Source: Candidatus Rokuibacteriota bacterium (GTDB lineage: Bacteria; Methylomirabilota; Methylomirabilia; Rokubacteriales; DASRDR01). From it: a stretch of 64,000 bases of DNA. Location: NCBI GenBank assembly GCA_044866005.1, contig JBIOTN010000067.1, forward strand, positions 4,899 to 68,898, written 5' to 3'. Both the position numbers and the translations under genes were made by a program. Below, one piece after another: positions 15,730 to 47,875 of this stretch (the stretch's first letter is position 1; each line of letters opens with the position of its first letter). The notes under the pieces were generated by a model. That model did not search any database. It saw only the letters and a program-made list of their open reading frames with translations, and was not told the DNA's origin.

Positions 15730-16197
15730 ATGGCCGAGCTGATCCACGTCTCCCGGGTCAGGATCGTGAAGGACAAGGGGCCGGTGCGGCGCGCCTACAT
15801 CGAGCAGTTCCCGGACCCGGTGCGCTACGGCGTCCACGGCGGCATCAAAGACTTCTACGGGGTGGACCCGGTGGAGGAGCTGCCCACCACCCTCGACCAC
15901 GTGATCGCGGCGGTCGCAGGGTGAATGACCGGGACGCTAGCCGGGGCGCTAGCGGCGCGGAAGATCCCGACCCAGCCCGATCGCCTCTCCTCCGAGGTCG
16001 AGGGATTCATCGAGAACGTGGACGGCAAGCCCTTGATCACCCGGATCAAGGTCCACTACAAGCTCCGGGTCCCTCCGGGCAAGCGCGCAGAAGCGCTGCG
16101 GGCGATCGAGGTGCATGAGCAGGGCTGCCCGGCGTCCCAATCAGTCAGGCGCGGCATCGCGATCGAGTGGGACGGCGACGTGCACGAGGAGGCTTGA
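15730..16197 (+). CDS. OsmC/Ohr-family peroxiredoxin with in-frame TGA (15922-15924) at the peroxidatic Cys position; candidate selenoprotein
   Basis: The two ORFs 15730-15924 and 15925-16197 are in frame. The motif HVIAAVAG-[TGA]-MTGTLAGALAAR matches OsmC AAHAAC-FSMALS, and the second Cys GCPASQS is conserved. A hairpin lies 10 nt after the TGA. GAGGAGGAG RBS. Confidence 0.65.
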
Positions 16198-26617: not shown

Positions 26618-26648
26618 TTGACATTCCAGTTAACTGGAAGGATTACCC
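26618..26648 (+). promoter_or_regulatory. MerR-type promoter: TTGACA, 19-bp spacer with perfect palindrome TTCCAGTTAACTGGAA
   Basis: Upstream of the merR-family gene at 26685. Confidence 0.5.
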
Positions 26649-26684
26649 TGTCTGTGTGAGCGATTCGACCAGGGAGAGCCGAGA

Positions 26685-27122
26685 GTGAGCACGCCCCTGA
26701 AGATCGGCGAGCTGGCCGCCAAGAGCGGGGTCGCGGCGAAGACCATCCGCTTCTATGAAGGGGCGGGCGTGCTTCCGGCCCCCAGCCGGGGGGCGAACGG
26801 CTACCGCCTCTACGGCGCCGACGCCCTGGATCTCCTGCGCTTCGTTCGGCAGGCGCGAGGCCTCGGTCTCACCCTCGGGGAGATCAAGGAGCTGGTCGCG
26901 ATCCGCCGGCGCGGGGAGATCCCCTGCCGGCACGTCTATCGGCTGATCGAGGAGAAGGCCGCGGAGTTCGAGCGCAAGCTGAAGGACCTCGCCGAGCTTC
27001 GGGCGGTCCTTCGCCGGAGCCTCCGGTCGGCGCCGCGGCCGTTCCCCCGCGCCGCCGTCTGTCCCCATATCGAGGCTGGGAGCCAGGGGGCTTTCGCCGT
27101 CTCCCGCCCCCGGAAGGCGTAG
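26685..27122 (+). CDS. MerR-family metal-responsive regulator (CueR-like)
   Basis: HTH KIGELAAKSGVAAKTIRFYE; its stop abuts the start of the ATPase gene. Confidence 0.8.
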   Translation: MSTPLKIGELAAKSGVAAKTIRFYEGAGVLPAPSRGANGYRLYGADALDLLRFVRQARGLGLTLGEIKELVAIRRRGEIPCRHVYRLIEEKAAEFERKLKDLAELRAVLRRSLRSAPRPFPRAAVCPHIEAGSQGAFAVSRPRKA

Positions 27123-29537
27123 ATGGCCCTGGCCAAGCTCCAGCTCAAGATTGGCGGGATGGCGTGCTCCTTCTGTGTCGAGACCATCAAGAAAGGCCTC
27201 GGCCGGATCGATGGGGTGGCCGAGGTCGACGTCAGCCTCGCCCACGAGGAGGCGCTGATCGCCTACGACCCCGCCCGGGTGCCGCCGACGCTCGTCCGCG
27301 ATACGCTCCGCAGCCTCGGCTACACGGTTCGGGACCCCACCAAGGTCCGCACGTTCGAGGACGAAGAGGCCGAGCTGGCCCGTGAGCGGGACCGCCTCAT
27401 CCTGGCGGGGGCGGCTGCATGGTCGGCGTTCATGGCCATGCTGCTCATGTGGGTGGGCCGGCACCACCCCGCGGTCCACTGGTTCATGGCCGCGCTCGGC
27501 GCGGGGATGGTCTTCGGGCCCGGCCTCTACATCCTGAAGATGGCGTGGGCCTCCGCTCGCCGGCGGATCCTCAACCAGCACGTCCTTATGGAGGTCTCGG
27601 CGTTCGGCGGCCTCGCCGGCGGGATCATGGGGCTCGTGAAGCCGGTGTTCCCGAGCTACGAGTTCTTCGGCGTCGCCGTCTTCGTCACGGCCTACCACAT
27701 TCTCGGTGGTTACACCTCGCTGCTCGTTCGGACACGCGCCTCCCAGGCGGTGAAGAAGCTGCTCTCGCTCCAACCGCTGACCGCGCGGGTCGTGCGCGAC
27801 GGCGCGGAGGTCGATGTCCCCATGGCCGAGGTCCGGAAGGGCGACCTCGTGCGGGTGCGGCCGGGCGAGCAGGTGCCAGTCGACGGGACCGTTGTGGAAG
27901 GCGCCTCGGCCGTGAACGAGAGCCTGGTCACTGGCGAGCCCCTGCCGCGCGAGAAGCTACCCGGCCAGGAGGTGATCGGCGGCTCGCTCAACACGTCGGG
28001 GACGCTGCTCGTCCGCGTCACCCGGGTCGGCGAGGAGAGCTTCCTCGAGCAGGTGGCGCGCCACATTCAGGAGGCGCGCGCGCTGAAGCCGGGCATCCTG
28101 CTGCTGCTGGACCGGATCCTGAGGTATTTCGTCCCCGGCGTGCTCGCCGTCGGCCTGGCGGCGTTCGGCTTCTGGTCGCTCGGCGCCTGGACGCTCTGGG
28201 GCGCGCCCGACTGGGACCGTGCCGCGTTCGCGGCGCTGGCGGTGTTCGTGATGGGCTATCCCTGCGCGCTCGGGATGGCCATGCCCCTGGCGATGATCCG
28301 CGGGGGCGGCGAAGCCGCCCGCCAGGGGATCCTCATGCGGAGCGCGGCGTCGTTCCAGGCCTTCAAGGACGTCTCGGTCGTCGTGCTCGACAAGACGGGA
28401 ACCATCACGCATGGCCAGCCTCGCGTCGTGGACATCGTCCCGGCCGGCGGTTGGGAGCCGGACGGCGTACTCCGGCTGGCCGCGGCCGCCGAGCAGCCCT
28501 CCGAGCACCCGCTCGGCCAGGCGGTGGTGAAGGCCGCGGAGGCGCGCGGTCTCCAGGTTCCTCAGGCGGCGGACTTCCAGGCGGTGGCCGGCCACGGTGT
28601 CCGGGCCACGACCGACGGCAAGCGGCTCCTCCTCGGGACGCTCCGCTTTCTCGCCGAAGCCGGCGTCCGGACGGACGGACTTGCTGCCGCCGCCGAGGCC
28701 CAGGAGGCCGGAGCCCGGACCGTGATCGCCCTGGCCGCCGACGGCCACCTCGCCGGCCTCATCGCCCTGGCAGATACCGTCAAGCCGGACGCGGCCGAGG
28801 CAGTCGCCCGCTTCCGCGCGGCCGCGATCGAGCCGGTGATGATCACCGGCGACAACCCGCGGACCGCCCGAGCGGTGGCCGAGCAGGTCGGGATCCGGCA
28901 AGTGCTCGCCCAGGTGCTGCCGCAGGACAAGGCGGCCCGGGTTCGGGAGCTCCAGCGCCAGGGCAAGCGGGTGGCCATGGTCGGGGACGGCATCAACGAC
29001 GCTCCGGCGCTCATGCAGGCCGACGTCGGGCTCGCGATCGGCGCCGGCACTGACATCGCCATCGAGTCGGCCGACGTGGTGCTGGTCGGCGAGCGGCTGA
29101 CCGCGGCGGTCGATGCCTACCACGTCGCGCGCCGGACGTACCGGAAGACGGTCCAGAACCTGACCCTCGCCTTCTCCTTCAACGGGGTCGGCGTCCCGCT
29201 GGCGACTACCGGGCTGTTGGCCCCGGTCTGGGCGATGGCCGCCATGGCGGCGAGCGTGACGGTGGTCCTGCTCAACTCCTTCCTCGGCCGCCTCGTGCCG
29301 CAGTGGCGGAGGCGGCAGCCGGAGGTGCAGCAGTTCGCCTTGACGGTCCCGAGCATCCACTGCGACGGCTGCGTGACGATGATTCGCGAGGAGCTGGTCA
29401 AGCTGCCGATGGTCGTGTCCGTGGACGGCGACCCGGTGTCGAAGCAGGTCGTCGTCACGACGCGCGACGGTCAGGGGCAGCTCGCCGCGGTCGAGGAGGC
29501 GATCGCGCGCCTCGGCCACGTGGTGGGGGAACGCTGA
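27123..29537 (+). CDS. P1B-type heavy-metal ATPase with N-terminal HMA (GMACSFC), atypical YPC TM motif and a C-terminal HMA-like domain (HCDGC)
   Basis: [13 protein letters not shown]; 804 aa. Confidence 0.9.
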   Translation: MALAKLQLKIGGMACSFCVETIKKGLGRIDGVAEVDVSLAHEEALIAYDPARVPPTLVRDTLRSLGYTVRDPTKVRTFEDEEAELARERDRLILAGAAAWSAFMAMLLMWVGRHHPAVHWFMAALGAGMVFGPGLYILKMAWASARRRILNQHVLMEVSAFGGLAGGIMGLVKPVFPSYEFFGVAVFVTAYHILGGYTSLLVRTRASQAVKKLLSLQPLTARVVRDGAEVDVPMAEVRKGDLVRVRPGEQVPVDGTVVEGASAVNESLVTGEPLPREKLPGQEVIGGSLNTSGTLLVRVTRVGEESFLEQVARHIQEARALKPGILLLLDRILRYFVPGVLAVGLAAFGFWSLGAWTLWGAPDWDRAAFAALAVFVMGYPCALGMAMPLAMIRGGGEAARQGILMRSAASFQAFKDVSVVVLDKTGTITHGQPRVVDIVPAGGWEPDGVLRLAAAAEQPSEHPLGQAVVKAAEARGLQVPQAADFQAVAGHGVRATTDGKRLLLGTLRFLAEAGVRTDGLAAAAEAQEAGARTVIALAADGHLAGLIALADTVKPDAAEAVARFRAAAIEPVMITGDNPRTARAVAEQVGIRQVLAQVLPQDKAARVRELQRQGKRVAMVGDGINDAPALMQADVGLAIGAGTDIAIESADVVLVGERLTAAVDAYHVARRTYRKTVQNLTLAFSFNGVGVPLATTGLLAPVWAMAAMAASVTVVLLNSFLGRLVPQWRRRQPEVQQFALTVPSIHCDGCVTMIREELVKLPMVVSVDGDPVSKQVVVTTRDGQGQLAAVEEAIARLGHVVGER

Positions 29538-29538
29538 G

Positions 29539-30045
29539 ATGCGGAAATGGGTATGGGTCGCGGTCCTCGCCGCGGCGCTCGTGACCGGGTACGCCGTCGG
29601 GTACTTCTTCAACCCCGCCGGCGTCCCGCCGGTCAAGGGCTACCTGGACGGGCGCGAGGTCAAGTTCCTCCACACCGAGGCCTCGGACCCGAAGGTGGCC
29701 GCGCTCCTGACGGAGATGATGCGCTCGCCCGTCCTGGTCGTCCCGGCGCTCGCCCGGGCCCCCGAGGCCATGGTGGCGCCCGTCTACGTGTTCACGAACG
29801 GCGTGAGGAAGGGGGAGGGGCCGTTCAGGTATCAGTCCGACGTCTTCGAGCGGCCGCCGGGCCAGGATGGCTACAGCCCGCTGCGCGCGGTCCACCTCGT
29901 GAAGTGGAAGAACGAGGGCGCCGCCCGTGAGCTCCGATCGGCCGGGGAAGTGAAAGAGGCGGAGGCGAAGGGCGAGCTGACGATCGAGCGGCCGGGCGTC
30001 GTCGTCAACATGCCGTTCCTCACGTGGCCCGGCGGACGGCGGTGA
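29539..30045 (+). CDS. Membrane-anchored hypothetical protein
   Basis: ATG overlaps the ATPase stop; N-terminal TM segment; no recognised domain. Confidence 0.5.
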   Translation: MRKWVWVAVLAAALVTGYAVGYFFNPAGVPPVKGYLDGREVKFLHTEASDPKVAALLTEMMRSPVLVVPALARAPEAMVAPVYVFTNGVRKGEGPFRYQSDVFERPPGQDGYSPLRAVHLVKWKNEGAARELRSAGEVKEAEAKGELTIERPGVVVNMPFLTWPGGRR

Positions 30046-30085
30046 CGATCAGGGGCGTGAACCGAAAGGAGCTTCACGGAGAGAG

Positions 30086-30292
30086 ATGACCACGGTGCGG
30101 TTGAGGGTCCCTACGATCAAGTGCGAAGGATGCGTCGAGAGGATCAGGAGCACGCTCGTCACGAGGGCGGGAGTCCACCGGGTCGAAGGCGACCCGGAGC
30201 GGAAGGAGCTCAGCGTGACGTTCAACCCTGAGCAGTTGAGCGATCAAGACATCCGAGCCGCGGTGTGGAATGCCGGGTTCATGGTCGGCTGA
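30086..30292 (+). CDS. Small HMA-like metallochaperone with CEGC motif
   Basis: LRVPTIKCEGCVERI; resembles the ATPase C-terminal domain. Confidence 0.6.
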   Translation: MTTVRLRVPTIKCEGCVERIRSTLVTRAGVHRVEGDPERKELSVTFNPEQLSDQDIRAAVWNAGFMVG

Positions 30293-30346
30293 GGCGCTGT
30301 CACAGCTCATGACGGGCTCAACCGGACGCACGGAGACGGCCGTGGA

Positions 30347-31546
30347 ATGCCGATGGGCGCGATCCAGCGGGGCGTGAGGAATCCGTTCCGAAACGTGGCC
30401 AGGACCCTGGTCGCCGTCTGCCTCCTGGCCCTGGTCCTGGGACTCCTCGCGCTCATGGTCCAGGCGGCGCGGCTCAGCCGCGAGCAGCTCGGGAGGCTGG
30501 AGGCCCGGGTCCGGACGCTGATCGAGCTGCGGGAGGCGGGCGCGTTCGGCACCGGCGGCTTTGGCGGCGACAAGCCGGTGGGTGAGGCGGACTTCTCCGT
30601 CGACACGCTGGACAAGGTCAGGCAGATCCCCCACGCCCGCCACATCGTCCGGATCGAGGAGTACATCTACACCCCTCACATCGATCCGAGCCGGGGCAAC
30701 GCCTACGCCATGATCATCGGCCTCCCTCCCGGAGCGGCGATGCGCGCGATCGGGGAGGTCGATTACGAAAACGCCCGGCTCATCGCGGGGCGGCCGCTCG
30801 GGCCGGACGACACCGAGGCCCCGGTGGCCGTGGTCGGCAAGCTCTACGCGAAGGAGCGGCTGGCTCTGCCGACTCCGACCGAGGCCGCCCTGGCCGGCCG
30901 GGCGCTCGTCCTGAACGGCCGGCCGTTCCGGATCGCCGGCGTCTACACCACGGACAACGACTTCGGCGACAACCACGTCTTCGTCCCGCTCGAGGCGTTC
31001 CGGGCGACGTTTCGTCCCGGGAGAAAGCTCGGGAAGATCTTCGTCTCCGTAGACTCGGTGGCGAACGTCGATGCCGTCGTCCAGGACCTCAAGCGCATCC
31101 CGGAGACGGACGTGGTCACGACGCCCGAGGCCGTCTCGACCGCGCGCAGGACGCTCAGCGCGATGGCGGCGACGAGCGGGGTGGGCTCCATCGTGCTCTT
31201 CGCGGTCGGCGGTGTCCTGGTCGCCTTCGTCATGGTGCTCGTGACCAAGGAGCGGGTCCGAGAGATCGGGACCCTGAAGGCGATCGGCGCCGGCGACAGC
31301 GAGGTCCTCGGCCAGTTCCTGGCCGAGGTCTTTGCCCTCACGCTGATGGGAGCTCTCCTGGCCGTCCCGCTCGCCTACCTGGGCACGCCCGTGCTCCGCC
31401 ACGCCCTCGGCGTGACCCTCGAGGTCGACCGGACGGTCTTTCTCCTCATCCTGGCGGGCGGCTTGCTGTTCGGGGCGCTGGGCAGCCTGTACCCGATCGT
31501 GAAGGGCCTCCGACTGAGCCCGGTCGAGGCCACGACGAAGGCCTGA
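30347..31546 (+). CDS. FtsX-family ABC transporter permease (LolC/E- or MacB-like)
   Basis: N-terminal TM segment, periplasmic domain, 3 C-terminal TM segments, TKERVREIGTLKAIGA motif. Confidence 0.8.
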   Translation: MPMGAIQRGVRNPFRNVARTLVAVCLLALVLGLLALMVQAARLSREQLGRLEARVRTLIELREAGAFGTGGFGGDKPVGEADFSVDTLDKVRQIPHARHIVRIEEYIYTPHIDPSRGNAYAMIIGLPPGAAMRAIGEVDYENARLIAGRPLGPDDTEAPVAVVGKLYAKERLALPTPTEAALAGRALVLNGRPFRIAGVYTTDNDFGDNHVFVPLEAFRATFRPGRKLGKIFVSVDSVANVDAVVQDLKRIPETDVVTTPEAVSTARRTLSAMAATSGVGSIVLFAVGGVLVAFVMVLVTKERVREIGTLKAIGAGDSEVLGQFLAEVFALTLMGALLAVPLAYLGTPVLRHALGVTLEVDRTVFLLILAGGLLFGALGSLYPIVKGLRLSPVEATTKA

Positions 31547-31557
31547 GGATACCCGGC

Positions 31558-32815
31558 ATGCGCATGGTCGTCCTCGGCGTCCGCAACCTCGGCCGGAACA
31601 AGCTCCGGCTGGCCCTCGGCGCCGGGCTGATCGGCGTGCCCGTCTTCCTGCTGCTCGTGTTCCAGGCGATGGGGGCGGCCGTGCGGGCGCAGACGGAGCT
31701 GCTCAAGCAGGGCGTCGACACGCACCTCCAGCTCCGGGCGAAAGGCTCGATGGGCCACGTGAACATGGTGGGCAGCTCCCGGCTGCTGCCCGGAGAGGCC
31801 CTCCAAAGGGCGCGCGGGATCGAGCGCGTGGCGAAGGTCGAGCCGTACCTGCTCGCCATGAATCCGACCGAGGGCCACAACTTCGCGATGCACGTCGGCC
31901 TGCAGGTCGGGGACGCCAAGCGGCTGGAGTCCCATGGGGAAGCCGGGAATCCCCGGATCGTTGCCGGGCGCGACCTGACGGCGGCCGACGCCGGCCGGGA
32001 TGTCGCCCTGATCGGCCAGGGCTATGCCCGGTGGGCGGGCCTCACACCGGACCGGCTCCCCGCGCCGTTCGTGGTCGACCCCGCCCGGTCGAACCCCGTG
32101 ATCTTCCGCCTCGACCGGCCACGCCACGAGCTGACGGTCGTGGGCATCTACGCGAGCGGCTATGTCTTCGGGGATCTGCAGCTCTTCATGCCGATCGAGA
32201 CCTTCCGCCGCATCTACGGCGCGGACCAGGGCTTCTCCTGGCTGTTCGTCACGGTCGAGTCGGTCGACCACGTGGCGGCCGTGGAACGGCGACTCCGCGA
32301 GGCGCTGGGGGGCGTGGCCGACATCATCGCGCCCACGGCAGCGGCCGCCTTCGCCAGCACGGCCACGCACGCCGTGGAGCGGGTGACTGGCGCGGTGACG
32401 CTGTTCGCGGCCGCGCTGATGGTCGTGGTCGTCTTCTTCGTCATGCTGGTGATCGTCCGCGAGCGCGCTCGCGAGATCGGGACGCTGAAAGCGATCGGCG
32501 CCTCCGACGGGGACCTCGTCCTCGAGTTCCTGTCCGAGGCCGTCGCGCTCACCGCGACGGGCGGTCTCCTCGGGCTCCTGCTCTTTCAGGCGCTCGGCGG
32601 GGTCCTGGCTGGGCGGCTGTTCGCCCTCGGTGTCGCCCCGTTCCTGCCGGCCCCGTACAGGGAGACGCTCTTCGACGCGCTGGGCGGCGTCGGCGCCGCC
32701 ATGACCCCCGCCACCGTCGGCCTCGTCGGGCTGATCGCCCTCGTCGTCGCGTCGGTGGGCAGCGGCTACGGCGTCTGGCAGGTCACGCGGCTCTCCCCCG
32801 TAGAGGCGATGCGCC

Positions 32816-32823
<8 letters not shown>
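31558..32823 (+). CDS. FtsX-family ABC transporter permease (paralogue)
   Basis: Same architecture; VRERAREIGTLKAIGA. Confidence 0.8.
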
Positions 32824-33493
<670 letters not shown>

Positions 33494-33510
33494 CGATTGG
33501 GGGGCTTCCC

Positions 33511-34194
33511 GTGCTGAGAGGCCGAGCCTGCAGGCTCCTGCTCATCGCGGCCGTGGTCCTCGCGGGCCCGGCGCCCGGCGGGGGCCAGCCCATGCCGGCG
33601 TCCACCGCGCCCACGGAGGCGGTCATTTCCGTTCGGGCCGCGGCCGGCGGGACCCTGCCGCAAGTGACCCGCGACCGGATCCGCGCCGTGCCGAACATCA
33701 CGGCCATCGAGCCGTTCCTCGAAGGCAAGACGGCCGACGGGGTGAGGGTGATCGGGGTGGAACCCGCGCCGGCCCTCCACCTCCGGTCGGGCACCGGCAT
33801 ACGGCCCATCGGCATCGTCCAGGGCCGCGGCATCGAGGCCGGCGACGCGCCGGAGGCGATCGTCGTCGGGAGGACGTTTTCGCAGAAGAACAAGACGGCG
33901 CTGGGGCTGAGCATCCCGGCCATGCTGACGAAGGATCATTTTCCCCCGCTCCTCGTCGGCGGCCAGGGCTTCGCGATCATCGGGATCTACACGACCGGCG
34001 ACGCCGCGACCGACGACCAGGTGCTCGTGCTGCTGCCGACCGCCCAGAAGCTCCTCAACCAACCCGGCCGGCTGAGCGGGCTCTATGTCACGGTCACGCC
34101 GGCGTCGCCCCGCACGGTCGAAGACGTCGCCGGCAGGCTGCGCCGCGCGCTCGGGGGCTCCGCCGAGGTGGTGGCGCTGCCGGGCCCGCGCTGA
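33511..34194 (+). CDS. Secreted protein resembling a stand-alone MacB/FtsX periplasmic core domain
   Basis: GTG start; signal peptide; FAIIGIYTTGDAATDDQVLV parallels the periplasmic loops of the two permeases. Confidence 0.55.
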   Translation: MLRGRACRLLLIAAVVLAGPAPGGGQPMPASTAPTEAVISVRAAAGGTLPQVTRDRIRAVPNITAIEPFLEGKTADGVRVIGVEPAPALHLRSGTGIRPIGIVQGRGIEAGDAPEAIVVGRTFSQKNKTALGLSIPAMLTKDHFPPLLVGGQGFAIIGIYTTGDAATDDQVLVLLPTAQKLLNQPGRLSGLYVTVTPASPRTVEDVAGRLRRALGGSAEVVALPGPR

Positions 34195-34219
34195 GCGACG
34201 TCATGCACGGGAGCACGTC

Positions 34220-35083
34220 GTGAGGGACTCTCGAGGCGCGGCTCGGGAGGGACGCGTCGTCGAGGACGCGGCCGCGACGAAACCGGGCGGCACCCTCTCG
34301 CCCCTTCGCGGTCTGTGGGTGCCGAGCCTCGCCCTTCTCGGGGTCGCGCTCGTCGGCTGGACGGCCTGGACCTACGGCGCCTTGAGGGGCCTCGAGTCCG
34401 CTGGCTTCGATGCGCCGTGGGCGCTCGCGGGCCTCGGATTCCTCGCCGGGGTCGGCGCCTTCTTCGCCCCGTGCGCGTTCGCGCTGTTCCCAGCCTATGT
34501 CTCGTACTACCTGAGCCTATCCGGCGAAGGCCGCACCGTCGGCCGGTCGCTCGGCCTGGGGCTCGCCTGCGCCGCGGGCAGTGCGCTGTTCTTCGGGCTG
34601 GTGGGGGGCGTGATTGCGCTGGCCGGCGGGGCGATCTCCACCTACTTGATCGCCGCGAAGCCCTTCGTGGCCCTCGGGGTTGTCGTGCTCGGTGCCGTGC
34701 AGCTTGCTGACGTCCGGATGCCGTCCCTGGCCCTGCCTTTTCCCCTGGACACCGGAGGCGCTCGCTCGGCGGGGGTCGCCGTGTTCCTCTACGGCTTCGG
34801 GTACGCGCTCGCGTCCACCGGCTGCACCTTGCCGATCTACGTCTCGATCACCGTCCTGCCGCTCACGACCGGCTTCTCCGGGTCGGCTCTCTTGACCTTT
34901 ACGGCCTTCGCCGTCGCGATGGCGAGCTTGATGCTCGTCACCACCGTCTTGGTGGGGCTCGCCAAGCGGAGGATCCTGGCCGCGCTTCAAGGGTCCACGG
35001 TCTGGATCAAGCGCGCTAGCGGCATCGTGCTCATCGCCGCGGGCCTCTACCTCGGCTACTACTACGTGAGAGCCGGAATGTGA
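34220..35083 (+). CDS. CcdA/DsbD-like transmembrane thiol-disulfide transporter (two conserved Cys). The start is uncertain.
   Basis: Polytopic; Cys in FFAPCAF and ASTGCTLP helices. Confidence 0.65.
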   Translation: MRDSRGAAREGRVVEDAAATKPGGTLSPLRGLWVPSLALLGVALVGWTAWTYGALRGLESAGFDAPWALAGLGFLAGVGAFFAPCAFALFPAYVSYYLSLSGEGRTVGRSLGLGLACAAGSALFFGLVGGVIALAGGAISTYLIAAKPFVALGVVVLGAVQLADVRMPSLALPFPLDTGGARSAGVAVFLYGFGYALASTGCTLPIYVSITVLPLTTGFSGSALLTFTAFAVAMASLMLVTTVLVGLAKRRILAALQGSTVWIKRASGIVLIAAGLYLGYYYVRAGM

Positions 35084-35105
35084 GCCGCCTCACAGGGAGA
35101 CGACG

Positions 35106-35410
35106 CATGCGACGTGTCGCCGGACTCATGGCGGTGCTGCTTCTGATGGCGTGGCTCACCGTGCCTGTCACCGCCTTCGCGGCGACCAAGGTCGCCGTGA
35201 TCGAGGTCAAGGGGATGGTCTGTCAGGCCTGACCCTTCTCGGTCAAGACAGCCTTGGAGAGGCTGCCGGGGGTGAGCCGAGCTGACGTGAGCCTCGAGAA
35301 GGCGGAGGCTCGGGTCGAGTTCGACGACGCGAAGATCTCGGCCGACAAGCTGGCCGCGGCCGTCGACCGGCTGGGCTTCCGCGCTCGGGTGCTCGCCGTC
35401 GAGCCAGGGG
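35106..35410 (+). CDS. MerP/CopZ-like periplasmic HMA-domain protein with GMVCQA-[TGA]-P (CxxU). The signal peptide is in a different frame (+1 indel near 35160). Candidate selenoprotein or pseudogene.
   Basis: ATG 35106 with AGGGAGA RBS encodes MRRVAGLMAVLLLMAWLT. The HMA domain is in the next frame from 35161. TGA at 35230-35232; hairpin 16 nt downstream. Confidence 0.5.
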
Positions 35411-35416
35411 GGTAGC

Positions 35417-35683
35417 GTGCCGGTCGAGATCGAGCTCTTGACCGCGCCCGGCTGAGGGAAATGCGAGGCCGCCAAGGCGTTGGCGCTCGACGTGATCGAC
35501 TCGGTCCGAGCGGAGTGCCATGATGTGTGGCTCACGGTCGTCGACGTCACGGAGCAGCCTGCCGTGGCGGTGAAGTACCGCGTGACGGCGACGCCCGCCA
35601 TCGCGATCGACGGAGTCCTCGCCTTCCGCGGCGTCCCCCCAGCCCACGTCCTCCGCGACCGAATCTTGCAGGCGAAGGCGTGA
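35417..35683 (+). CDS. Small thioredoxin-fold protein with G-[TGA]-GKC (UxxC); candidate selenoprotein
   Basis: GTG start after AGGGGGG; the C-terminal TATPAIAIDG..FRGVPP motif matches small Trx/Grx-like proteins. TGA at 35453-35455; hairpin 14 nt downstream. Confidence 0.55.
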
Positions 35684-35737: not shown

Positions 35738-35768
35738 TTGACTCTCCTCCCAGGAGGAGGGTTTAGCC
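35738..35768 (+). promoter_or_regulatory. MerR-type promoter: TTGACT, 19-bp spacer with dyad CTCCTCC-CA-GGAGGAG
   Basis: 20 nt upstream of the merR-family ATG. Confidence 0.45.
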
Positions 35769-35787
35769 TCGGGTCAGGACGGGACAC

Positions 35788-36249
35788 ATGAGCGAGTTGA
35801 AGATCGGGGCGCTGGCCCGGCTCGCGGGCTGCACGGTCAAGGCCATTCGATTCTACGAGGCGAACGGCCTCCTTTTCGCCGCTGCGCGCAGCCCGGCCCG
35901 GTACCGGCTCTATACCGAGCGCGACCTCAGACAACTCCAATTCATCCAGCGTGCGAAGCTGATCGGGCTCCCGCTCACCAAGATCAAGAGTCTGGTCGTT
36001 CACGTGAGCGAGGAGCAGTGCGGGTGTCCCACGATCCGGCCTCAGCTGGAGCAGCTGATCCGCGAGCAGCTCAAGGAAGTGGGGGACAAGCTCGACCAGC
36101 TGGCGCTCCTCAAGCACGAGCTGGAGGGCTTGCTGGCAAAGATGCGTGGCGCCGTGCGACCACTTCCCCAAGAGCTCTGCGTGTGCGGCGCACAGCATCA
36201 CTCGGGGTTTGTCGGACTCGTGAAGCTCAAGCAAGGAGGACGGCGATGA
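35788..36249 (+). CDS. MerR-family heavy-metal-responsive regulator (Cys-rich effector domain)
   Basis: HTH IGALARLAGCTVKAIRFYE; C-terminal CGC and CVC. Confidence 0.8.
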   Translation: MSELKIGALARLAGCTVKAIRFYEANGLLFAAARSPARYRLYTERDLRQLQFIQRAKLIGLPLTKIKSLVVHVSEEQCGCPTIRPQLEQLIREQLKEVGDKLDQLALLKHELEGLLAKMRGAVRPLPQELCVCGAQHHSGFVGLVKLKQGGRR

Positions 36250-36603: not shown

Positions 36604-36747
36604 ATGGCACTGAAGAAGGGAGAGCGCTACCGCTGCCCGGATCCGAAGTGCGGCTGCGAGATCGAGGTCACCAAGGGCGCCGCGCCGGGCCAGGGCGGCG
36701 ATCTGAACCCGCGTTGCTGCTGCGGCAAGGAGATGCAGCGCGTGTGA
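36604..36747 (+). CDS. Small (47 aa) Cys-rich metallothionein-like peptide
   Basis: CPDPKCGCEIE...NPRCCCGKEM; the ATG follows the previous gene. Confidence 0.35.
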   Translation: MALKKGERYRCPDPKCGCEIEVTKGAAPGQGGDLNPRCCCGKEMQRV

Positions 36748-36807: not shown

Positions 36808-38250
36808 TCAGCGTCGTACGCGCCTCGTAGGCAGCAGGGCCCGACTCAGGTGGCGATTCCAGCTCCCGTAGCGCTCTCGGATCGCGCCCCGGGGGAGCGC
36901 CAGGAGGATCACGGCGGCGCCGATGATCATGTCGTTCGACGTCGCACCGACATTCGAGCCGGCGAGCACCCAGGGCGCGACGACGAGCCAGGCCCCGACA
37001 ACGACGTTGACGAGGCGCAAGGGGCGGGCCACTTCCGCCGTCACGATGATGGCCAAAGTCAGGATCAACGCCCCTCCGATGTGGTCGCTGTCCGCAGCCG
37101 GGCCCTCGGCCTGGACCACGGCGGGCGCCGCCATCAGCCAGACGCCAAGCGCCGCGCTGACCAGGAGAGTCCAGGGAGCGCCGATCCCCCACAGCATGGC
37201 CGGGACGATCCGGGAGATCGGTGACCCGTAGCGCGGGGTTCGGAGATCCTTGCCCTCGCGCTCGGTCGTGCCGCCCACCCAGAACGTCCACCAGAAGGGC
37301 TTCCCCTCCCGGACACTCTGGGCGAGGAACTGTCCCATCGCGACGACCTCGTCGAGCGTCAGGGGAATCATCAACAACATGAGGAAGGCCGCCGCCAGAC
37401 AGAGGGTGCACCACTGACCGACGATGACGGGCTGGAGAATGACCAGCACGATGTGGGTGATGCCGAGCGGGACGACGAGGATCCCGAAGAACGTCACCAT
37501 CCATGGCATCGTGCGCCACCGAGTCTGGCCGCCCATGTAGCCCATGAGGGCTTCGAACGTATAGGCCGCCGCGCCCAGCCCCGCGTCCGAGATCGGCCAG
37601 GCACGCGAGACCTCCGAGTGGAGGACGCGCATGGTGCCTTCACCGAAGAACGGTTCCCAGGCGACGTCGACATAGCCGAGCTGGACGGCGGCCAGATAGC
37701 GGGAGATGAACCAGCCGGCGAAGGCGAGCGCGATGATGGGCGTCCGCTGGAGCCAGGAAGACGGATTGTACGTCCATCCGGGCGGGATCTCCGGGCCGGG
37801 CTTCATCATGACCAGATGATGGGCCGCGCCCGGCATCATGGGCACGAGCACCGAGAAGGTGATTGCCAGCGCCCCGACCAGGGTATCGTTGACGTAGGCG
37901 ACCGGGCGTGGCGCCCAGAAGAGGAGCGGCGCAAACTGCAGCCACACGCCGACGAGACACACCGCCCAGCGCCCCGCGAAATCCAGGCGCGGCAAGAGCG
38001 ACAGCGCGCCGAAGCACGCGAGCAGCGCCCCGCTGATCGTGTCGCTCCACGCGGTCGCCGCGCTTTCGTAGCCGAACGTGGCGGGACTACCGATCAGCCA
38101 TACGCCCAGCACCGCGTTCGTCACGTTGGTCCAGAGCCATTTCGCGCGCTGCTGCCGGATCATCTCCAGATGGTCTCGAGCGTGTTCCTGCACCCCGTCC
38201 CGCGGGAGTGGCGCGGCAGGGGCGGCGTGCTCGGGACCTCGCCGGCTCAT
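36808..38250 (-). CDS. Vitamin K epoxide reductase (VKOR)-family membrane protein
   Basis: Polytopic; GQWCTLCLAAAF CxxC in a TM helix. Confidence 0.65.
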   Translation of the reverse strand: MSRRGPEHAAPAAPLPRDGVQEHARDHLEMIRQQRAKWLWTNVTNAVLGVWLIGSPATFGYESAATAWSDTISGALLACFGALSLLPRLDFAGRWAVCLVGVWLQFAPLLFWAPRPVAYVNDTLVGALAITFSVLVPMMPGAAHHLVMMKPGPEIPPGWTYNPSSWLQRTPIIALAFAGWFISRYLAAVQLGYVDVAWEPFFGEGTMRVLHSEVSRAWPISDAGLGAAAYTFEALMGYMGGQTRWRTMPWMVTFFGILVVPLGITHIVLVILQPVIVGQWCTLCLAAAFLMLLMIPLTLDEVVAMGQFLAQSVREGKPFWWTFWVGGTTEREGKDLRTPRYGSPISRIVPAMLWGIGAPWTLLVSAALGVWLMAAPAVVQAEGPAADSDHIGGALILTLAIIVTAEVARPLRLVNVVVGAWLVVAPWVLAGSNVGATSNDMIIGAAVILLALPRGAIRERYGSWNRHLSRALLPTRRVRR

Positions 38251-42836: not shown

Positions 42837-43739
42837 GTGCGAAGACGCATACTGAGCTGGTTTCGGGTCGTAGGAGCGGGGGCGGCGCTGCTCGGGGCGA
42901 CAGGGCTTGCGTCCGCCGCCTCGCAGCATCCTGGCACGGCGAGCTCGACGTTCGAGCATGTCCACGCCCTGGCGATGGACGCCGAGGGCCGGACGCTCTG
43001 GCTCGGGACTCACGCCGGGCTCTTCCGGACCGAAGGCGGGGGACGGTCGTGGGAGCCGGTGGCGCTGCCTGTGCCGGCGGGCCACGCCGACATCATGACG
43101 GTGACCACCGACCCGGGCGATTCCCGGGTGCTCTACGCCGCCACGCACGATGCCGGGGTCTTCAAGAGCGTGGACGGCGGGGCGACGTGGAAAGCCGTGA
43201 ACGCCGGCCTCGGCGGGCTGGACGTCCACGGGCTCGCCGTCGACCCGAACACGCCGTCGAAGCTCCACGCCGCCGTGCGGGACAAGGGCGAGGGGATCTA
43301 TCGGAGCACCGATGGCGGCGGCAAGTGGACGCGCGTGGACGATGGACCCGGCGGCGAGGTCAAGGTCCTGGCCTCGGTCAACATGCCGACGGGGATGGGC
43401 GGCATCTGGCTGTACGCGGGCACGGCCGAGGGGCTTCAGCGGAACCCCGACTGTTTCTGAGGGTGGAAGCTCATGGCGGGCGGTCTGCCCGCCGGAAAGA
43501 CGGTGAACGGCTTCGCGGTGGATCCCACCAATCCGCGCCTGATGTACGTCGCGATGCGGGACGGCCTCTTCCGCAGCACGGATGGCGGCGAGAGCTGGAA
43601 GCCGGTAGGTAAGGGGCTCCGGGACATGGCGGTCGTGGTCGTGAACCCGAAGCGGCCGGCCGAGGTCTACGCGGCGACGACCGATGGGATGATCTACCGG
43701 AGCGCCGACGGAGGAACCACGTGGGAACGCCGGAAGTGA
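42837..43739 (+). CDS. Secreted BNR/Ycf48-like beta-propeller protein interrupted by an in-frame TGA (43458-43460)
   Basis: ORFs 42837-43460 and 43473-43739 are in the same frame. SxDGGxxW repeats lie on both sides of the TGA, and a 7-bp hairpin with a GGUCU loop sits 15 nt after it. Confidence 0.5.
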
Positions 43740-45338: not shown

Positions 45339-45914
45339 GTGAACCTGTCACGCTGGGGTTGGGGTTCCCGCGCCTCCCGGCTCGGATTGTTGGTGCTGGT
45401 GGGCCTGGCGGCGCCGGCGCTCGCGGCCTCGGGGCCCGGCGACGCGCCCAGGGACCCCTTCGACACCATGGGCGTGCACCGTCCGGCGGAGCCGGCGCCG
45501 GCTCCGGATCTGGCCTTCCGGTCGCTGGACGGTCGCGAGGCGCGCCTGCGCGACCTCCGGGGCAAGGTGGTCCTCCTCGGTTTGTTCCGGACCGACTGAC
45601 CCAACTGCCGGCGGGAGGCTCCCGCCAAGGCGGCGCTGTATCGGGCGTTCCGGGCAAAGGGACTGGAAGTCGTGGGACTCGACCTGGGGGAATCGGCGGA
45701 GATGGTCCGAGCCTTCGCGAGAGAGTTCCAGGTGACGTTCCCCATGTGGCTCGACCCCGCGGGCCAGAGTCCGGCGGCCCTCGGCGTCTACGGGCATCCC
45801 AACACGATCGTCATCGACCGCGAGGGCCGCATCGTCGGCCGCGTCCGGGGCGAGCGTGACTGGGGCACCGACGACGCCCGACGTCTGGTCGAGGTCCTGT
45901 TGAGCCGCCGATGA
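45339..45914 (+). CDS. TlpA/redoxin-family periplasmic oxidoreductase with D-[TGA]-PNC (UxxC); candidate selenoprotein
   Basis: ORFs 45339-45599 and 45672-45914 are in the same frame. GKVVLLGLFRTD-U-PNCRREAP aligns with [21 protein letters not shown] of the Cys paralogue at 40272. Hairpin 10 nt after the TGA. Confidence 0.6.
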
Positions 45915-47386: not shown

Positions 47387-47875
47387 GTGTCGCAGGACGA
47401 TCGGAACGTCGAGCGATCGCGCATCACGCTGCTGGCCGGAGGCCTCGCCCTGGCGCTCACCCTGGCGACCCGGCGGGAATCTCGCGCGGCGCCAACGCCC
47501 TTTCCCGAGGTCATGGTCTACAAGACCCCGACCTGACGCTGCTGCGACGCGTGGGTGGGGCACCTGCGCCAGCACGGGTTTTCGGTGACGGTCGAGAATC
47601 GCACGGACCTCCGGCCGATCAAGGCGAAGCACGCGGTGCCGGCCGAGCTCCAGACCTGTCACACGGCGCTCGTCGGCGGCTACGTCGTGGAAGGGCACGT
47701 GCCGGCCGACCTGATCGTCCGCCTGCTCCGCGAGCGGTCGCCGGTGGCCGGCCTCGCCGTCCCCGGGATGCCGGTCGGGTCGCCCGGGATGGAAGTGCCG
47801 GGGAGCCCGGCGGCCAAATATCAGGTCTTCAGCTTCGACCGGAGCGGCAAGACGACGGTGTTCGCGAGCCGGTGA
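47387..47875 (+). CDS. DUF411/CopG-family periplasmic copper-binding protein with T-[TGA]-RCC (UxCC in place of CxCC); candidate selenoprotein
   Basis: GTG start after AAAGGAG. Signal peptide, then MVYKTPT-U-RCCDAW. The C-terminal half (ORF 47555-47875) is in frame. A 9-bp hairpin lies 12 nt after the TGA. Confidence 0.6.

What the first reader, a model, noticed from the sequence alone, without database searches (positions are those of the whole stretch)
35417..35683. Small thioredoxin-fold protein with UxxC active site
The sequence VEIELLTAPG-[TGA]-GKCEAAKALA...VTATPAIAIDGVLAFRGVPP matches small Trx/Grx-like proteins (MKIEVFTSPGCPHC...TPTIVING), with TGA at the first Cys of CxxC.

A 6-bp stem CGCCAA/UUGGCG with loop GGCG lies 14 nt downstream of the TGA.

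The GTG start has an AGGGGGG RBS and follows the MerP-like gene by 6 nt, so the two are probably co-translated.
Basis: partly seen in the sequence, partly recalled or inferred. Interest (0 to 1): 0.68.

Follow-up and report, generated by a model that had tools for sequence, protein, structure and literature searches.

The report
Selenocysteine thioredoxin in copper-resistance operon
This is a real small thioredoxin-like gene whose in-frame TGA almost certainly encodes selenocysteine at the active site; it belongs to an unannotated clade of such genes that sit in copper/mercury-resistance operons of uncultured soil bacteria, so it is a new member of a well-known kind of selenoprotein.

Summary
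GTG 35417..TGA 35683 encodes an 88-residue Thioredoxin_3 (PF13192) protein, closest to the solved small thioredoxins MJ0307 and MtH895. TGA 35453-35455 aligns with the first Cys of CxxC, giving U-G-K-C.

The TGA is not an error. It is identical in four other assemblies. Five diverged orthologues (about 45-60% identity) carry TGA at the same codon, with the 11-12 upstream codons conserved (..VELLTAPG-U-[GTS]-K-C).

It is conserved in the orthologues, with the loop exactly 20 nt after UGA and three compensatory pairs. It qualifies in only 5 of 99 Cys-form homologues.

Five more in-frame TGAs in the window align with, or (BNR) lie near, redox or metal-binding Cys, each followed by a qualifying hairpin. 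TGA is still the main stop codon.

In public databases 69 of the 120 best-matching clusters are truncated after the active site, which suggests a sizeable mis-annotated selenoprotein clade.

The gene ends a CueR-type copA operon next to a CcdA/DsbD-like membrane protein and a periplasmic CxxU HMA protein. It is probably that relay's cytoplasmic electron donor (inferred).

The Sec machinery could not be checked. One correction: the start lies 1 nt, not 6 nt, after the upstream stop.

The parts
35417..35683 (+). Coding sequence of the Thioredoxin_3-type selenoprotein (88 residues, GTG start, TGA stop at 35681-35683), active site U-G-K-C
   Evidence: Translation. Pfam PF13192 E 1.2e-10. PDB 1FO5/1NHO alignments over residues 1-83. 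The N-terminus VPVEIELLTAPG matches homologue N-termini MPVEIEVFTSPG and MIRVELLTAPG.
35453..35455 (+). In-frame TGA, read as selenocysteine, at the first position of CxxC
   Evidence: Aligns with Cys in all Cys-form homologues. Identical in four other assemblies. TGA sits at the same codon in orthologues L142/L146, L143/L144, L147 and L149.
35461..35493 (+). SECIS-like stem-loop. The core is 35470-35485 (CGCCAA GGCG UUGGCG), extended by a lower stem; the apical loop starts 20 nt after UGA
   Evidence: Core energy is -7.6 kcal/mol and it meets the published bSECIS criteria. The 42-nt minimum-energy fold contains it (-14.7 kcal/mol). It is conserved in 5 orthologues with 91% of cells paired and 3 pairs changed on both sides, against 18-58% in slid controls. 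It is present in only 5 of 99 Cys-form homologues.
35406..35412 (+). Shine-Dalgarno-like AGGGGGG, 4 nt before the GTG start, inside the end of the upstream HMA gene
   Evidence: Read directly from the sequence. The HMA stop TAG at 35413-35415 lies 1 nt before GTG 35417.
35107..35415 (+). Upstream partner gene: periplasmic HMA/MerP-like protein with a signal peptide and in-frame TGA 35230-35232 (GMVCQA-U, i.e. CxxU). Hairpin CAGCC UUGGAGA GGCUG at 35249-35265
   Evidence: Translation. Pfam HMA E 9e-13. NCBIfam NF041115 metal-binding (seleno)protein 85.6 bits and MerP 71.8 bits, both below their cut-offs. The TGA and hairpin are conserved in L142-L149.
34220..35083 (+). CcdA/DsbD-type transmembrane thiol-disulfide transporter (DsbD_TM) with Cys in 'FFAPCAF' and 'STGCTLP'; the start may instead lie upstream at 34085
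   Evidence: Pfam PF02683 E 2.5e-6, 27.4 bits, cut-off 27.1. A DsbD_TM gene accompanies the Trx_3 gene in 116 of 136 Cys-form loci. It is also annotated in every Sec-form operon that covers that region; in L149 the ORF at that position has no Pfam hit.
26619..27122 (+). CueR-type promoter (TTGACA, 19-nt spacer holding the palindrome TTCCAGTTAACTGGAA, then TTACCC) and the first MerR-family regulator gene (26685-27122). This heads the + strand gene string copA ... CcdA-HMA(Sec)-Trx(Sec)
   Evidence: Sequence. Gene order and Pfam annotation of L001. All gaps between genes from 26685 to 35683 are 60 nt or less. The resemblance to E. coli PcopA is from memory.
35738..36249 (+). Second MerR-family regulator (35788-36249) with its own MerR-type promoter: TTGACT, then the dyad CTCCTCC-ca-GGAGGAG within a 19-20 nt spacer. 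It lies immediately downstream of the Trx gene
   Evidence: Sequence. The site is unique in the window. Pfam MerR_1 E 5e-14. NCBIfam ZntR/CueR/CadR-like hits are all below their cut-offs.

Best explanation
The gene encodes a cytoplasmic 88-residue thioredoxin-fold oxidoreductase of the MJ0307/MtH895 (Pfam Thioredoxin_3) type. The first active-site cysteine is replaced by selenocysteine, giving U-G-K-C.

During translation, the UGA at 35453 is decoded by Sec-tRNA(Sec) delivered by SelB. SelB is recruited by the stem-loop whose GG-starting apical loop lies 20 nt downstream. This step is inferred from the standard bacterial mechanism.

The gene is the last cistron of a CueR-type, copper-responsive copA operon. 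It is translationally coupled to a periplasmic HMA/MerP-like CxxU selenoprotein, which follows a CcdA/DsbD-type membrane protein.

The most likely role (inferred from conserved gene linkage) is dedicated cytoplasmic reductant for that membrane thiol-disulfide relay. The relay would keep periplasmic metal-binding and redox thiols/selenols reduced under copper or mercury stress.

Shown here: the Trx family and fold assignment, Cys/Sec pairing, TGA conservation, hairpin conservation and operon linkage. Inferred: actual Sec insertion, the electron-donor role and the responding metal.
For: Family and fold: PF13192 above the gathering score. PDB 1FO5/1NHO alignments put the TGA on the first CxxC Cys.

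Cys/Sec pairing: 99+ distinct Cys-form homologues have C-x-x-C at that place, most often C-G-K-C.

Not an error or a nonsense mutation:
- TGA is identical in NCBI MAG GCA_044870165.1 and three Logan assemblies that differ by SNPs elsewhere.
- TGA is conserved at the same codon in five distinct orthologues with about 45-60% protein identity to the window, with the N-terminal ..VELLTAPG conserved upstream of it.

SECIS:
- The hairpin meets the published bSECIS criteria.
- The loop GGC[G/C/A] lies exactly 20 nt after UGA in all five orthologues.
- In the 9-pair helix, 91% of cells are paired and 3 pairs change on both sides, against 18-58% and 0-1 pairs in slid controls.
- Only 5 of 99 Cys-form homologues (5 of 35 at GC >= 0.62) have a qualifying hairpin.

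Sec trait of the organism:
- Five more in-frame TGAs with coding signal on both sides: HMA CxxU, OsmC-like, TlpA-like UxxC, DUF411/CopG U-x-C-C and a BNR protein.
- Each lies in a reading frame whose read-through product matches a known family. Four align with a conserved Cys of that family; for BNR this was not tested.
- All six TGAs are followed by a qualifying hairpin, against 16.6% of control codons.
- TGA is still the main stop codon: 27 of 35 confident genes.

Size of the clade: 69 of the 120 best database clusters are truncated right after the active site. All five for which upstream DNA was obtainable have the TGA.

Function:
- A DsbD_TM membrane gene is adjacent to the Trx_3 gene in 116 of 136 Cys-form loci. 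A 4-nt overlap was seen in the two loci inspected in detail, L023 and L064.
- A MerR-family regulator is present in 92-94 of those loci, and MerA/MerT/MerP in a subset.
- The Sec-form operons are MerR-CopA-DUF7482-Trx3(Sec)-ABC-YtkA-DsbD_TM-HMA(Sec).
- The protein has no signal peptide, while the HMA protein has one.
Against: - No selA, selB, selD or tRNA-Sec in the 64-kb window or in the related loci held. The rest of the genome could not be searched, so the Sec-decoding trait is inferred, not shown.
- The window's own hairpin is the weakest of the orthologue set: 6 bp, -7.6 kcal/mol, just inside the -7.5 threshold. On its own it is not distinguishable from background.
- The stem is encoded by a conserved A-A-K/R-A-L peptide. 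With only five related sequences, conservation and covariation (26/500 shuffles) are suggestive rather than conclusive.
- No Rfam family matches.
- The protein scores below the curated cut-offs of every NCBIfam thioredoxin or selenoprotein model.
- The electron-donor role rests on gene linkage only. In the window the Trx gene is adjacent to the HMA gene rather than to the DsbD_TM gene, and its operon position varies among relatives.
Confidence: 0.8

Rival explanations
1. The selenoprotein is real but acts mainly as a metal-handling protein, not an electron donor. Its U-x-x-C site would bind Cu(I) or Hg(II) in the cytoplasm, receiving metal passed inward or buffered by the membrane protein and the periplasmic MerP-like protein. 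This is the role NmerA or metallochaperones play in mer and cop systems.
For: The operon is a metal operon with CueR-type promoter, CopA, HMA proteins, YtkA and DUF411/CopG. Cys-form relatives co-occur with MerA (21), MerT (14) and HMA/MerP (34) in 136 loci. Selenolates bind soft metals tightly (general chemistry). NCBIfam names the nearest subfamily 'MTH895/ArsE', which links it to metalloid operons.
Against: The most constant neighbour over large evolutionary distance is a DsbD_TM redox transporter, not a metal transporter. The closest solved relatives are redox-active thioredoxins. The operon already encodes dedicated HMA chaperones.
Confidence: 0.25
2. UGA is recoded here, but to cysteine or another residue rather than selenocysteine. 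This would happen through a SelB-like factor with a Sec-tRNA-like tRNA charged with Cys, or through near-cognate read-through, and would give an ordinary CxxC protein.
For: The Sec biosynthesis genes were not seen. Such UGA-to-Cys systems have been described in some uncultured bacteria (from memory, not checked here). One database relative, P0112, has Arg at the position, so the site tolerates other codons.
Against: The pattern matches classic selenoproteins: TGA at redox or metal-ligand Cys positions, followed by G-loop hairpins at the canonical distance. The neighbouring HMA protein scores 85.6 bits to a curated (seleno)protein model. A Methylomirabilota MAG is reported with 63 predicted selenoproteins (PMC13188914); a relative of this operon is labelled Candidatus Rokubacteria, which by GTDB placement from memory belongs to that phylum.
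Confidence: 0.05
3. The TGA is a true stop: a pseudogene, a nonsense mutation or an assembly error. Only a 12-residue peptide, or a 67-residue C-terminal fragment re-initiated at TTG 35480, would be made. This is how the gene callers annotated it.
For: Public annotations call only 52-67-residue fragments. TGA is the commonest stop codon in the window.
Against: TGA is identical in four further assemblies. The same codon is TGA in five diverged orthologues, and the 11-12 codons upstream of it are conserved at the protein level. A fragment lacking strand 1 and the active site could not fold as a thioredoxin. Five other genes in the window show the same in-frame TGA pattern.
Confidence: 0.03

Closest known systems
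MJ0307 and MtH895 small archaeal thioredoxins (PDB 1FO5, 1NHO; NCBIfam TIGR00411/TIGR00412; Pfam Thioredoxin_3 PF13192)
   Same: Same size (about 85 residues) and same minimal thioredoxin fold. The alignment runs end to end (E 9e-9 and 5e-8). The active site sits after strand 1 (..ELFTSP-CxxC) and the cis-Pro motif is conserved (TPAIAIDG against VPTIVING).
   Different: Sec replaces the first Cys, and the dipeptide is G-K rather than P-H or P-Y. Scores fall below the curated NCBIfam cut-offs (46.5 against 92.75; 31.9 against 62). The gene is bacterial and sits in a metal-resistance operon.
Known UxxC thioredoxin-fold selenoproteins: Sec-thioredoxin (PF00085) and Sec-glutaredoxin (PF00462), as catalogued in PMC13188914
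   Same: Sec lies at the N-terminal position of the CxxC motif of a Trx fold, and Cys-form homologues exist. A bSECIS hairpin lies just downstream.
   Different: A different Pfam family (PF13192). No curated selenoprotein model covers it. It is embedded in a copper/mercury operon together with other selenoproteins.
[quoted passage not shown]
   Same: The same Pfam domain (Thioredoxin_3), and small proteins that are mis-annotated or truncated in NCBI records.
   Different: There the Sec lies in a short N-terminal extension outside the thioredoxin domain, and Sec.1 even lacks the CxxC. Here Sec is the first residue of the CxxC itself. The organisms and gene neighbourhoods differ.
Cys-form Trx_3 + DsbD_TM (about 434 aa) + MerR module of sulfur-oxidising Gamma/Betaproteobacteria (loci L006-L141)
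   Same: Homologous small thioredoxin (33-46% identity) starting M-x-[IV]-x-[VI]-E-[VL]-F..PG-C-G-K-C. It is linked to a DsbD_TM membrane protein and a MerR-family regulator, often within mer gene clusters.
   Different: Cys rather than Sec. No qualifying hairpin in 94 of 99. The membrane partner is a longer, 434-residue protein whose gene overlaps the trx gene in the loci inspected.
Thioredoxin -> DsbD/CcdA/ScsB -> periplasmic partner relays, including the Scs copper-tolerance system (from general knowledge)
   Same: A cytoplasmic Trx-fold protein encoded with a DsbD_TM-type membrane protein and periplasmic thiol proteins, in a copper-stress context.
   Different: Here both soluble partners carry Sec, and the periplasmic partner is an HMA metal-binding domain rather than a Trx-fold protein. 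No biochemical link has been shown.

Membership tests
Pfam Thioredoxin_3 (PF13192) / thioredoxin fold | Score above the Pfam gathering threshold over the whole domain | tested here: met
   41.7 bits against 24.8; residues 4-77 match model positions 2-69 of 76 (U modelled as C).
Pfam Thioredoxin_3 (PF13192) / thioredoxin fold | CxxC redox motif after strand 1, and the cis-Pro loop before strand 3 | tested here: met
   U13-G-K-C16 aligns with CPHC of 1FO5 and CPYC of 1NHO. T59-P60 aligns with their V/A-P. P60 is invariant in alignment A1. The first Cys is Sec.
NCBIfam TIGR00411 (MJ0307 family thioredoxin) and TIGR00412 (MTH895/ArsE family) | Score at or above the curated cut-off | tested here: not met
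   46.5 bits against 92.75, and 31.9 bits against 62. The protein resembles these families but is not a curated member.
Bacterial selenoprotein | In-frame UGA aligned with Cys in homologues (Cys/Sec pair) | tested here: met
Bacterial selenoprotein | UGA conserved in orthologues from other organisms, with coding conservation on both sides | tested here: met
   L142/L146, L143/L144/L145, L147 and L149 all read ..VELLTAPG-TGA-[GTS]KC. The TGA is also identical in four assemblies of the window's own lineage.
Bacterial selenoprotein | [quoted passage not shown] | tested here: met
   6 bp, loop GGCG, 20 nt, -7.6 kcal/mol; 16.6% of control codons also pass. The hairpin is conserved with 3 compensatory pairs in orthologues and qualifies in only 5 of 99 Cys forms.
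Bacterial selenoprotein | Genome encodes selA, selB, selC (tRNA-Sec) and selD | not testable with these tools
   None is present in the 64-kb window or in the related loci held. The rest of the MAG could not be retrieved. Indirect support: six candidate Sec codons in the window.
Bacterial selenoprotein | Selenium shown in the protein (75Se labelling or mass spectrometry) | not testable with these tools
   This needs an experiment.
Brachyspira-type PF13192 selenoproteins (Sec.1/Sec.2) | Sec located in an N-terminal extension preceding the thioredoxin domain | tested here: not met
   Here Sec is residue 13, inside the domain at the CxxC position, and there is no extension.
SaoT, HUIPC-motif and VPGUxxT thioredoxin-like selenoproteins (NCBIfam NF040730, NF047660, NF041383) | A match to the curated model | tested here: not met
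   None of these models appears among the hits at E <= 0.01.

The most novel reading that the evidence does not exclude
The gene is one component of a so far undescribed selenium-dependent metal-stress relay. The relay would run from a cytoplasmic Sec-thioredoxin (UxKC), through a CcdA/DsbD-type membrane protein, to a periplasmic Sec-MerP-like HMA protein (CxxU). It is embedded in CueR/CopA operons, alongside further Sec-substituted copper proteins such as a CopG/DUF411 with U-x-C-C. It would be widespread in uncultured high-GC soil and groundwater bacteria and systematically truncated in databases (about 69 clusters at 90% identity). Selenium would then be a routine ingredient of copper/mercury defence in these mostly aerobic lineages.
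Probability: 0.35. Interest if true: 0.6.

Novelty: new member of a known kind. Interest (0 to 1): 0.42.

Why it matters
Thioredoxin-fold UxxC proteins are the commonest type of bacterial selenoprotein, so the chemistry is not surprising. Three points still matter.

1. This subfamily is a Thioredoxin_3 domain with Sec inside the CxxC. It is not in the 2026 catalogue of prokaryotic selenoproteins, which lists only the Brachyspira type for PF13192. No NCBIfam model covers it. It is truncated in dozens of database clusters, so annotation pipelines miss it.

2. It sits in an operon with a second selenoprotein, an HMA protein with CxxU. The island also holds Sec forms of OsmC, TlpA and CopG/DUF411. 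This points to a coordinated use of selenium in copper/mercury defence.

3. The conserved linkage to a DsbD_TM protein gives a testable hypothesis for a dedicated reductant of a periplasmic metal-stress relay.

Tried and rejected
- Thermodynamic significance of the hairpin. The z-scores of six 60-nt stretches were -0.9 to +0.2. Shuffles are uninformative at 71% GC, so I replaced them with in-window control codons.
- Rfam search at gathering score and at E <= 10: no SECIS family or other match of value.
- tRNA-Sec search: none in the window or in ten related loci.
- Sec machinery: Pfam scans of about 60 ORFs found no SelA/SelB/SelD.
- First homology search with the single protein found only fragments from the same strain plus three Cys forms.
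- Genome and metagenome pattern scans returned only distant Cys forms. The viral scan found nothing.
- The Sec clade appeared only after an exhaustive HMMER search with the C-terminal 75 residues and a profile search.
- Four contig look-ups were wasted. Three used window references: two ATG-start ORFs, for which a different called start or a strain SNP is the likely cause, and one GTG-start ORF that translates with V. The fourth used protein id P0012 and was also not on record. As a result I could not walk beyond the window.
- Cluster look-up gave no names. P0007 (437 aa) is a clustering artefact.
- Taxon. SHMT's nearest named relatives are 'Armatimonadota bacterium' MAGs at 82% identity. An operon relative is labelled 'Candidatus Rokubacteria'. 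I therefore do not assign a phylum.
- Literature search for the MAG or run accessions: nothing. Haft & Tolstoy 2025 (PMC12013261) is not held.
- The sigma-70 and terminator scan was uninformative. I found the MerR-type promoters by eye.
- L005/P0003 is a degenerate relative that lacks the N-terminal half and was not useful.

Full report
**1. What is in the sequence**

The + strand reads GTG(35417) CCG GTC GAG ATC GAG CTC TTG ACC GCG CCC GGC TGA(35453-35455) GGG AAA TGC GAG. It stays open to TGA 35681-35683. The read-through product is (M/V)PVEIELLTAPG-U-GKCEAAKALALDVIDSVRAECHDVWLTVVDVTEQPAVAVKYRVTATPAIAIDGVLAFRGVPPAHVLRDRILQAKA.

With U written as C, the matches are:
- Pfam Thioredoxin_3 (PF13192): E 1.2e-10, 41.7 bits against a gathering score of 24.8.
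- Solved small thioredoxins MJ0307 (1FO5, E 9e-9) and MtH895 (1NHO, E 5e-8), aligned end to end. The TGA falls on the first Cys of CPHC/CPYC, and T-P of TPAIAIDG falls on the cis-proline.
- NCBIfam TIGR00411, TIGR02187 and TIGR00412, all below their curated cut-offs. No curated selenoprotein model claims the protein.

AGGGGGG (35406-35412) precedes the GTG.

One detail is wrong. The upstream gene stops at TAG 35413-35415, so the gap to GTG 35417 is 1 nt, not 6 nt.

**2. Is it more than chance?**

The window is 71.4% GC. Dinucleotide shuffles fold as well as the real sequence, with z = 0.23.

[quoted passage not shown] The hairpin passes with 6 bp, loop GGCG, 20 nt and -7.6 kcal/mol. So do 16.6% of 5,827 in-frame control codons and 17.4% of all TGA trinucleotides in the window. 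The hairpin alone therefore says little.

The TGA itself is solid. It is identical in NCBI MAG GCA_044870165.1 and in three Logan assemblies from different runs. These differ from the window by SNPs nearby but not in this gene.

**3. Comparative evidence**

Early searches found only Cys forms. A single-protein search, a genome scan and a metagenome scan returned relatives of 29-46% identity. Most came from sulfur-oxidising Gamma- and Betaproteobacteria, and all had C-x-x-C (typically PG-C-G-K-C) at the TGA position. That establishes the Cys/Sec pair.

An exhaustive HMMER search with the 75 residues after the TGA then showed a different picture. The nearest relatives (about 40-60% identity) are mostly 59-77-residue ORFs that begin just after the active site. 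A profile search gave 120 best clusters, of which 69 are truncated this way and 44 are full-length Cys forms.

For every truncated protein whose upstream DNA I could fetch, the upstream frame continues through an in-frame TGA:
- MILVELLTAPG-U-GKCH (L142/L146)
- VIRVELLTAPG-U-TKCQ (L143/L144)
- MIRVELLTAPG-U-TKCR (L147)
- MIRVELLTAPG-U-SKCH (L149)

A stop codon kept at one codon across proteins this diverged, with conserved coding sequence on both sides, rules out a nonsense mutation or an assembly error.

**4. The hairpin in the orthologues**

- In all five Sec forms the apical loop GGC[G/C/A] starts exactly 20 nt after UGA, and the stem is 6-9 bp.
- On the alignment, the 9-pair helix has 91% of cells paired and three pairs changed on both sides (for example C-G to G-C, and A-U to G-C). 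Partners slid by 1-3 columns give 18-58% paired and 0-1 such pairs. 26 of 500 column shuffles reach the observed covariation score.
- In a 42-nt context, the minimum-energy fold of the window and of three of the four orthologues contains this hairpin.
- Among 99 distinct Cys-form homologues only 5 have any qualifying hairpin after the first Cys codon, or 5 of 35 in the GC >= 0.62 subset.

Two caveats apply. The stem encodes a conserved A-A-K/R-A-L peptide, and the five sequences are related to each other.

**5. The organism uses this trick repeatedly**

A scan for in-frame TGA with coding-type GC3 on both sides found five further sites:
- HMA/MerP-like GMVCQA-U at 35230
- OsmC-like VAG-U-MTG at 15922
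- TlpA/Redoxin-like RTD-U-PNC at 45597
- DUF411/CopG-like TPT-U-RCC at 47534
- A BNR/Sortilin-like protein, PDCF-U-GWK, at 43458

The read-through products match those families. For DUF411, the U aligns with the first Cys of the CGCC copper-cluster motif of CopG (PDB 6WIS, E 1.4e-29). The HMA, OsmC-like and TlpA-like TGAs also fall on conserved Cys positions; for the BNR protein no alignment to a Cys was tested.

All six TGAs are followed by a qualifying hairpin. The chance of that is 0.166^6, about 2e-5.

TGA nevertheless ends 27 of 35 confident genes, so the codon is not reassigned genome-wide. The HMA TGA and its hairpin CAGCC-UUGGAGA-GGCUG are conserved in all the related operons. These include a MAG that NCBI labels Candidatus Rokubacteria.

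**6. What could not be shown**

There is no tRNA and no SelA/SelB/SelD among about 60 ORFs scanned. I could not reach the rest of the genome.

The taxon is unresolved. The window's SHMT is 82% identical to proteins named 'Armatimonadota bacterium', while an operon relative is labelled Rokubacteria.

The 2026 review notes a Methylomirabilota MAG with 63 predicted selenoproteins (PMC13188914). Large selenoproteomes in such uncultured lineages are therefore on record. That is context, not proof for this genome.

**7. Context and likely function**

The gene string from 26685 to 35683 is all on the + strand with gaps of 60 nt or less. In order it holds:
1. MerR-family regulator
2. CopA-type P-type ATPase
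3. DUF7482
4. CopZ-like HMA
5. MacB/FtsX ABC transporter
6. A 227-residue protein
7. DsbD_TM/CcdA-like membrane protein
8. HMA(CxxU)
9. Trx(UxxC)

It is preceded by TTGACA-(19 nt containing TTCCAGTTAACTGGAA)-TTACCC, a CueR-type promoter (the resemblance to PcopA is from memory). Just downstream lies a second MerR regulator with its own dyad operator, CTCCTCC-ca-GGAGGAG.

The Sec-form relatives sit in the same kind of operon: MerR-CopA-DUF7482-Trx3(Sec)-ABC-YtkA-DsbD_TM-HMA(Sec). In L143/L144 a Sec-glutaredoxin (UFFC) occupies the slot that the window's gene has.

In the distant Cys-form clade:
- The trx gene is followed by a 434-residue DsbD_TM protein in 116 of 136 loci. In the loci I inspected (L023, L064) the two genes overlap by 4 nt.
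- A MerR regulator is present in 92-94 loci.
- mer genes are present in a subset.

The thioredoxin has no signal peptide, while the HMA protein has one.

The best-supported model is that the protein is the cytoplasmic reductant of the CcdA-like relay, which services periplasmic metal-binding and redox proteins under copper or mercury stress. A direct metal-handling role is the main rival. Both are inferences from gene linkage.

**8. Comparison with what is known**

UxxC thioredoxins and glutaredoxins are classic bacterial selenoproteins. [quoted passage not shown] Their Sec lies in an N-terminal extension, not in the CxxC (PMC5330540; PMC13188914).

This gene is therefore a new member of a known kind. 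It represents an apparently uncurated and systematically truncated clade.

**9. Verdict**

I give about 0.8 that it is a genuine Sec-containing thioredoxin-like protein. The residual doubt is mainly the unverified Sec machinery.

Interest is moderate. The chemistry is ordinary. The multi-selenoprotein copper operon and the size of the hidden clade are worth a specialist's note.

Noticed in passing
window 47387-47875 (TGA at 47534-47536): A DUF411/CopG-like periplasmic protein has an in-frame TGA at the first Cys of the CxCC copper-cluster motif (VYKTPT-U-RCC). It aligns to CopG PDB 6WIS at E 1.4e-29, and a 9-bp GGG-loop hairpin follows. PF04214 is not in the 2026 selenoprotein catalogue, so this may be the more novel selenoprotein in the window.
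   Followed up: partly
window 15730-16197 (TGA 15922), 45339-45914 (TGA 45597), 42837-43739 (TGA 43458): Three further candidate selenoproteins: OsmC-like (VAG-U-MTG), TlpA/Redoxin-like (RTD-U-PNC) and a BNR/Sortilin-like or F510_1955-like protein (PDCF-U-GWK). The last has the strongest hairpin, GGCGGGC-GGUCU-GCCCGCC. Whether it is a true Sec site is uncertain.
   Followed up: partly
window 35107-35415; L142-L149: The neighbouring HMA/MerP-like gene has a conserved TGA (C-x-x-U) and a conserved hairpin, CAGCC-UUGGAGA-GGCUG, in all related operons. It scores 85.6 bits to NF041115 'metal-binding (seleno)protein' (UxxU type, cut-off 95) but has CxxU.
   Followed up: partly
L143 7796-8050 and L144 6358-6612: A glutaredoxin-like gene with an in-frame TGA (MAKTIVLYSQPG-U-FFC) occupies the operon slot after HMA(Sec) that the window's Trx_3 gene has. 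No hairpin meeting the bSECIS criteria was found after this TGA.
   Followed up: no
window 36604-36747: A 47-residue Cys-rich ORF (..CPDPKCGCEIEV..PRCCCGKEM..) lies downstream of the second MerR. Assembly L004 differs from the window here by 8 synonymous and 2 non-synonymous codon changes within 75 nt. It is therefore a real gene under purifying selection, or a recombination patch.
   Followed up: no
window 35738-35769 and 26619-26650: Two different MerR-type promoters: TTGACT with the dyad CTCCTCC-ca-GGAGGAG before merR#2, and TTGACA with the palindrome TTCCAGTTAACTGGAA (CueR-like) before merR#1. This suggests two metal regulons side by side.
   Followed up: partly
L006-L141 (e.g. L064 2544-6021, L023 1998-5972): In sulfur-oxidising Gamma/Betaproteobacteria, the Cys-form small thioredoxin forms a conserved module with a 434-residue DsbD_TM protein and a MerR regulator. 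The module is often inside mer clusters (MerA, MerT/MerC, MerP). I found no description of this module in the papers searched.
   Followed up: partly
P0112 (database protein, 94 aa): One relative reads MIRVELLTAPG-R-SKC, with Arg where the others have Sec. This is probably a TGA-to-CGA change or a variant, and would inactivate the nucleophile.
   Followed up: no
L005 1161-1792: A relative (56% identity over the C-terminal half) lacks the strand-1/CxxC region altogether. It follows a small membrane protein with a CC motif (GITCCVGP, MerT/MerF-like). It is possibly a decayed or rearranged copy.
   Followed up: no
window 36808-38250 (- strand): A fusion of SPW repeats with a VKOR (vitamin K epoxide reductase) domain is transcribed convergently toward (on the strand opposite to) the metal operon. 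It is another periplasmic disulfide-forming component in the island.
   Followed up: no
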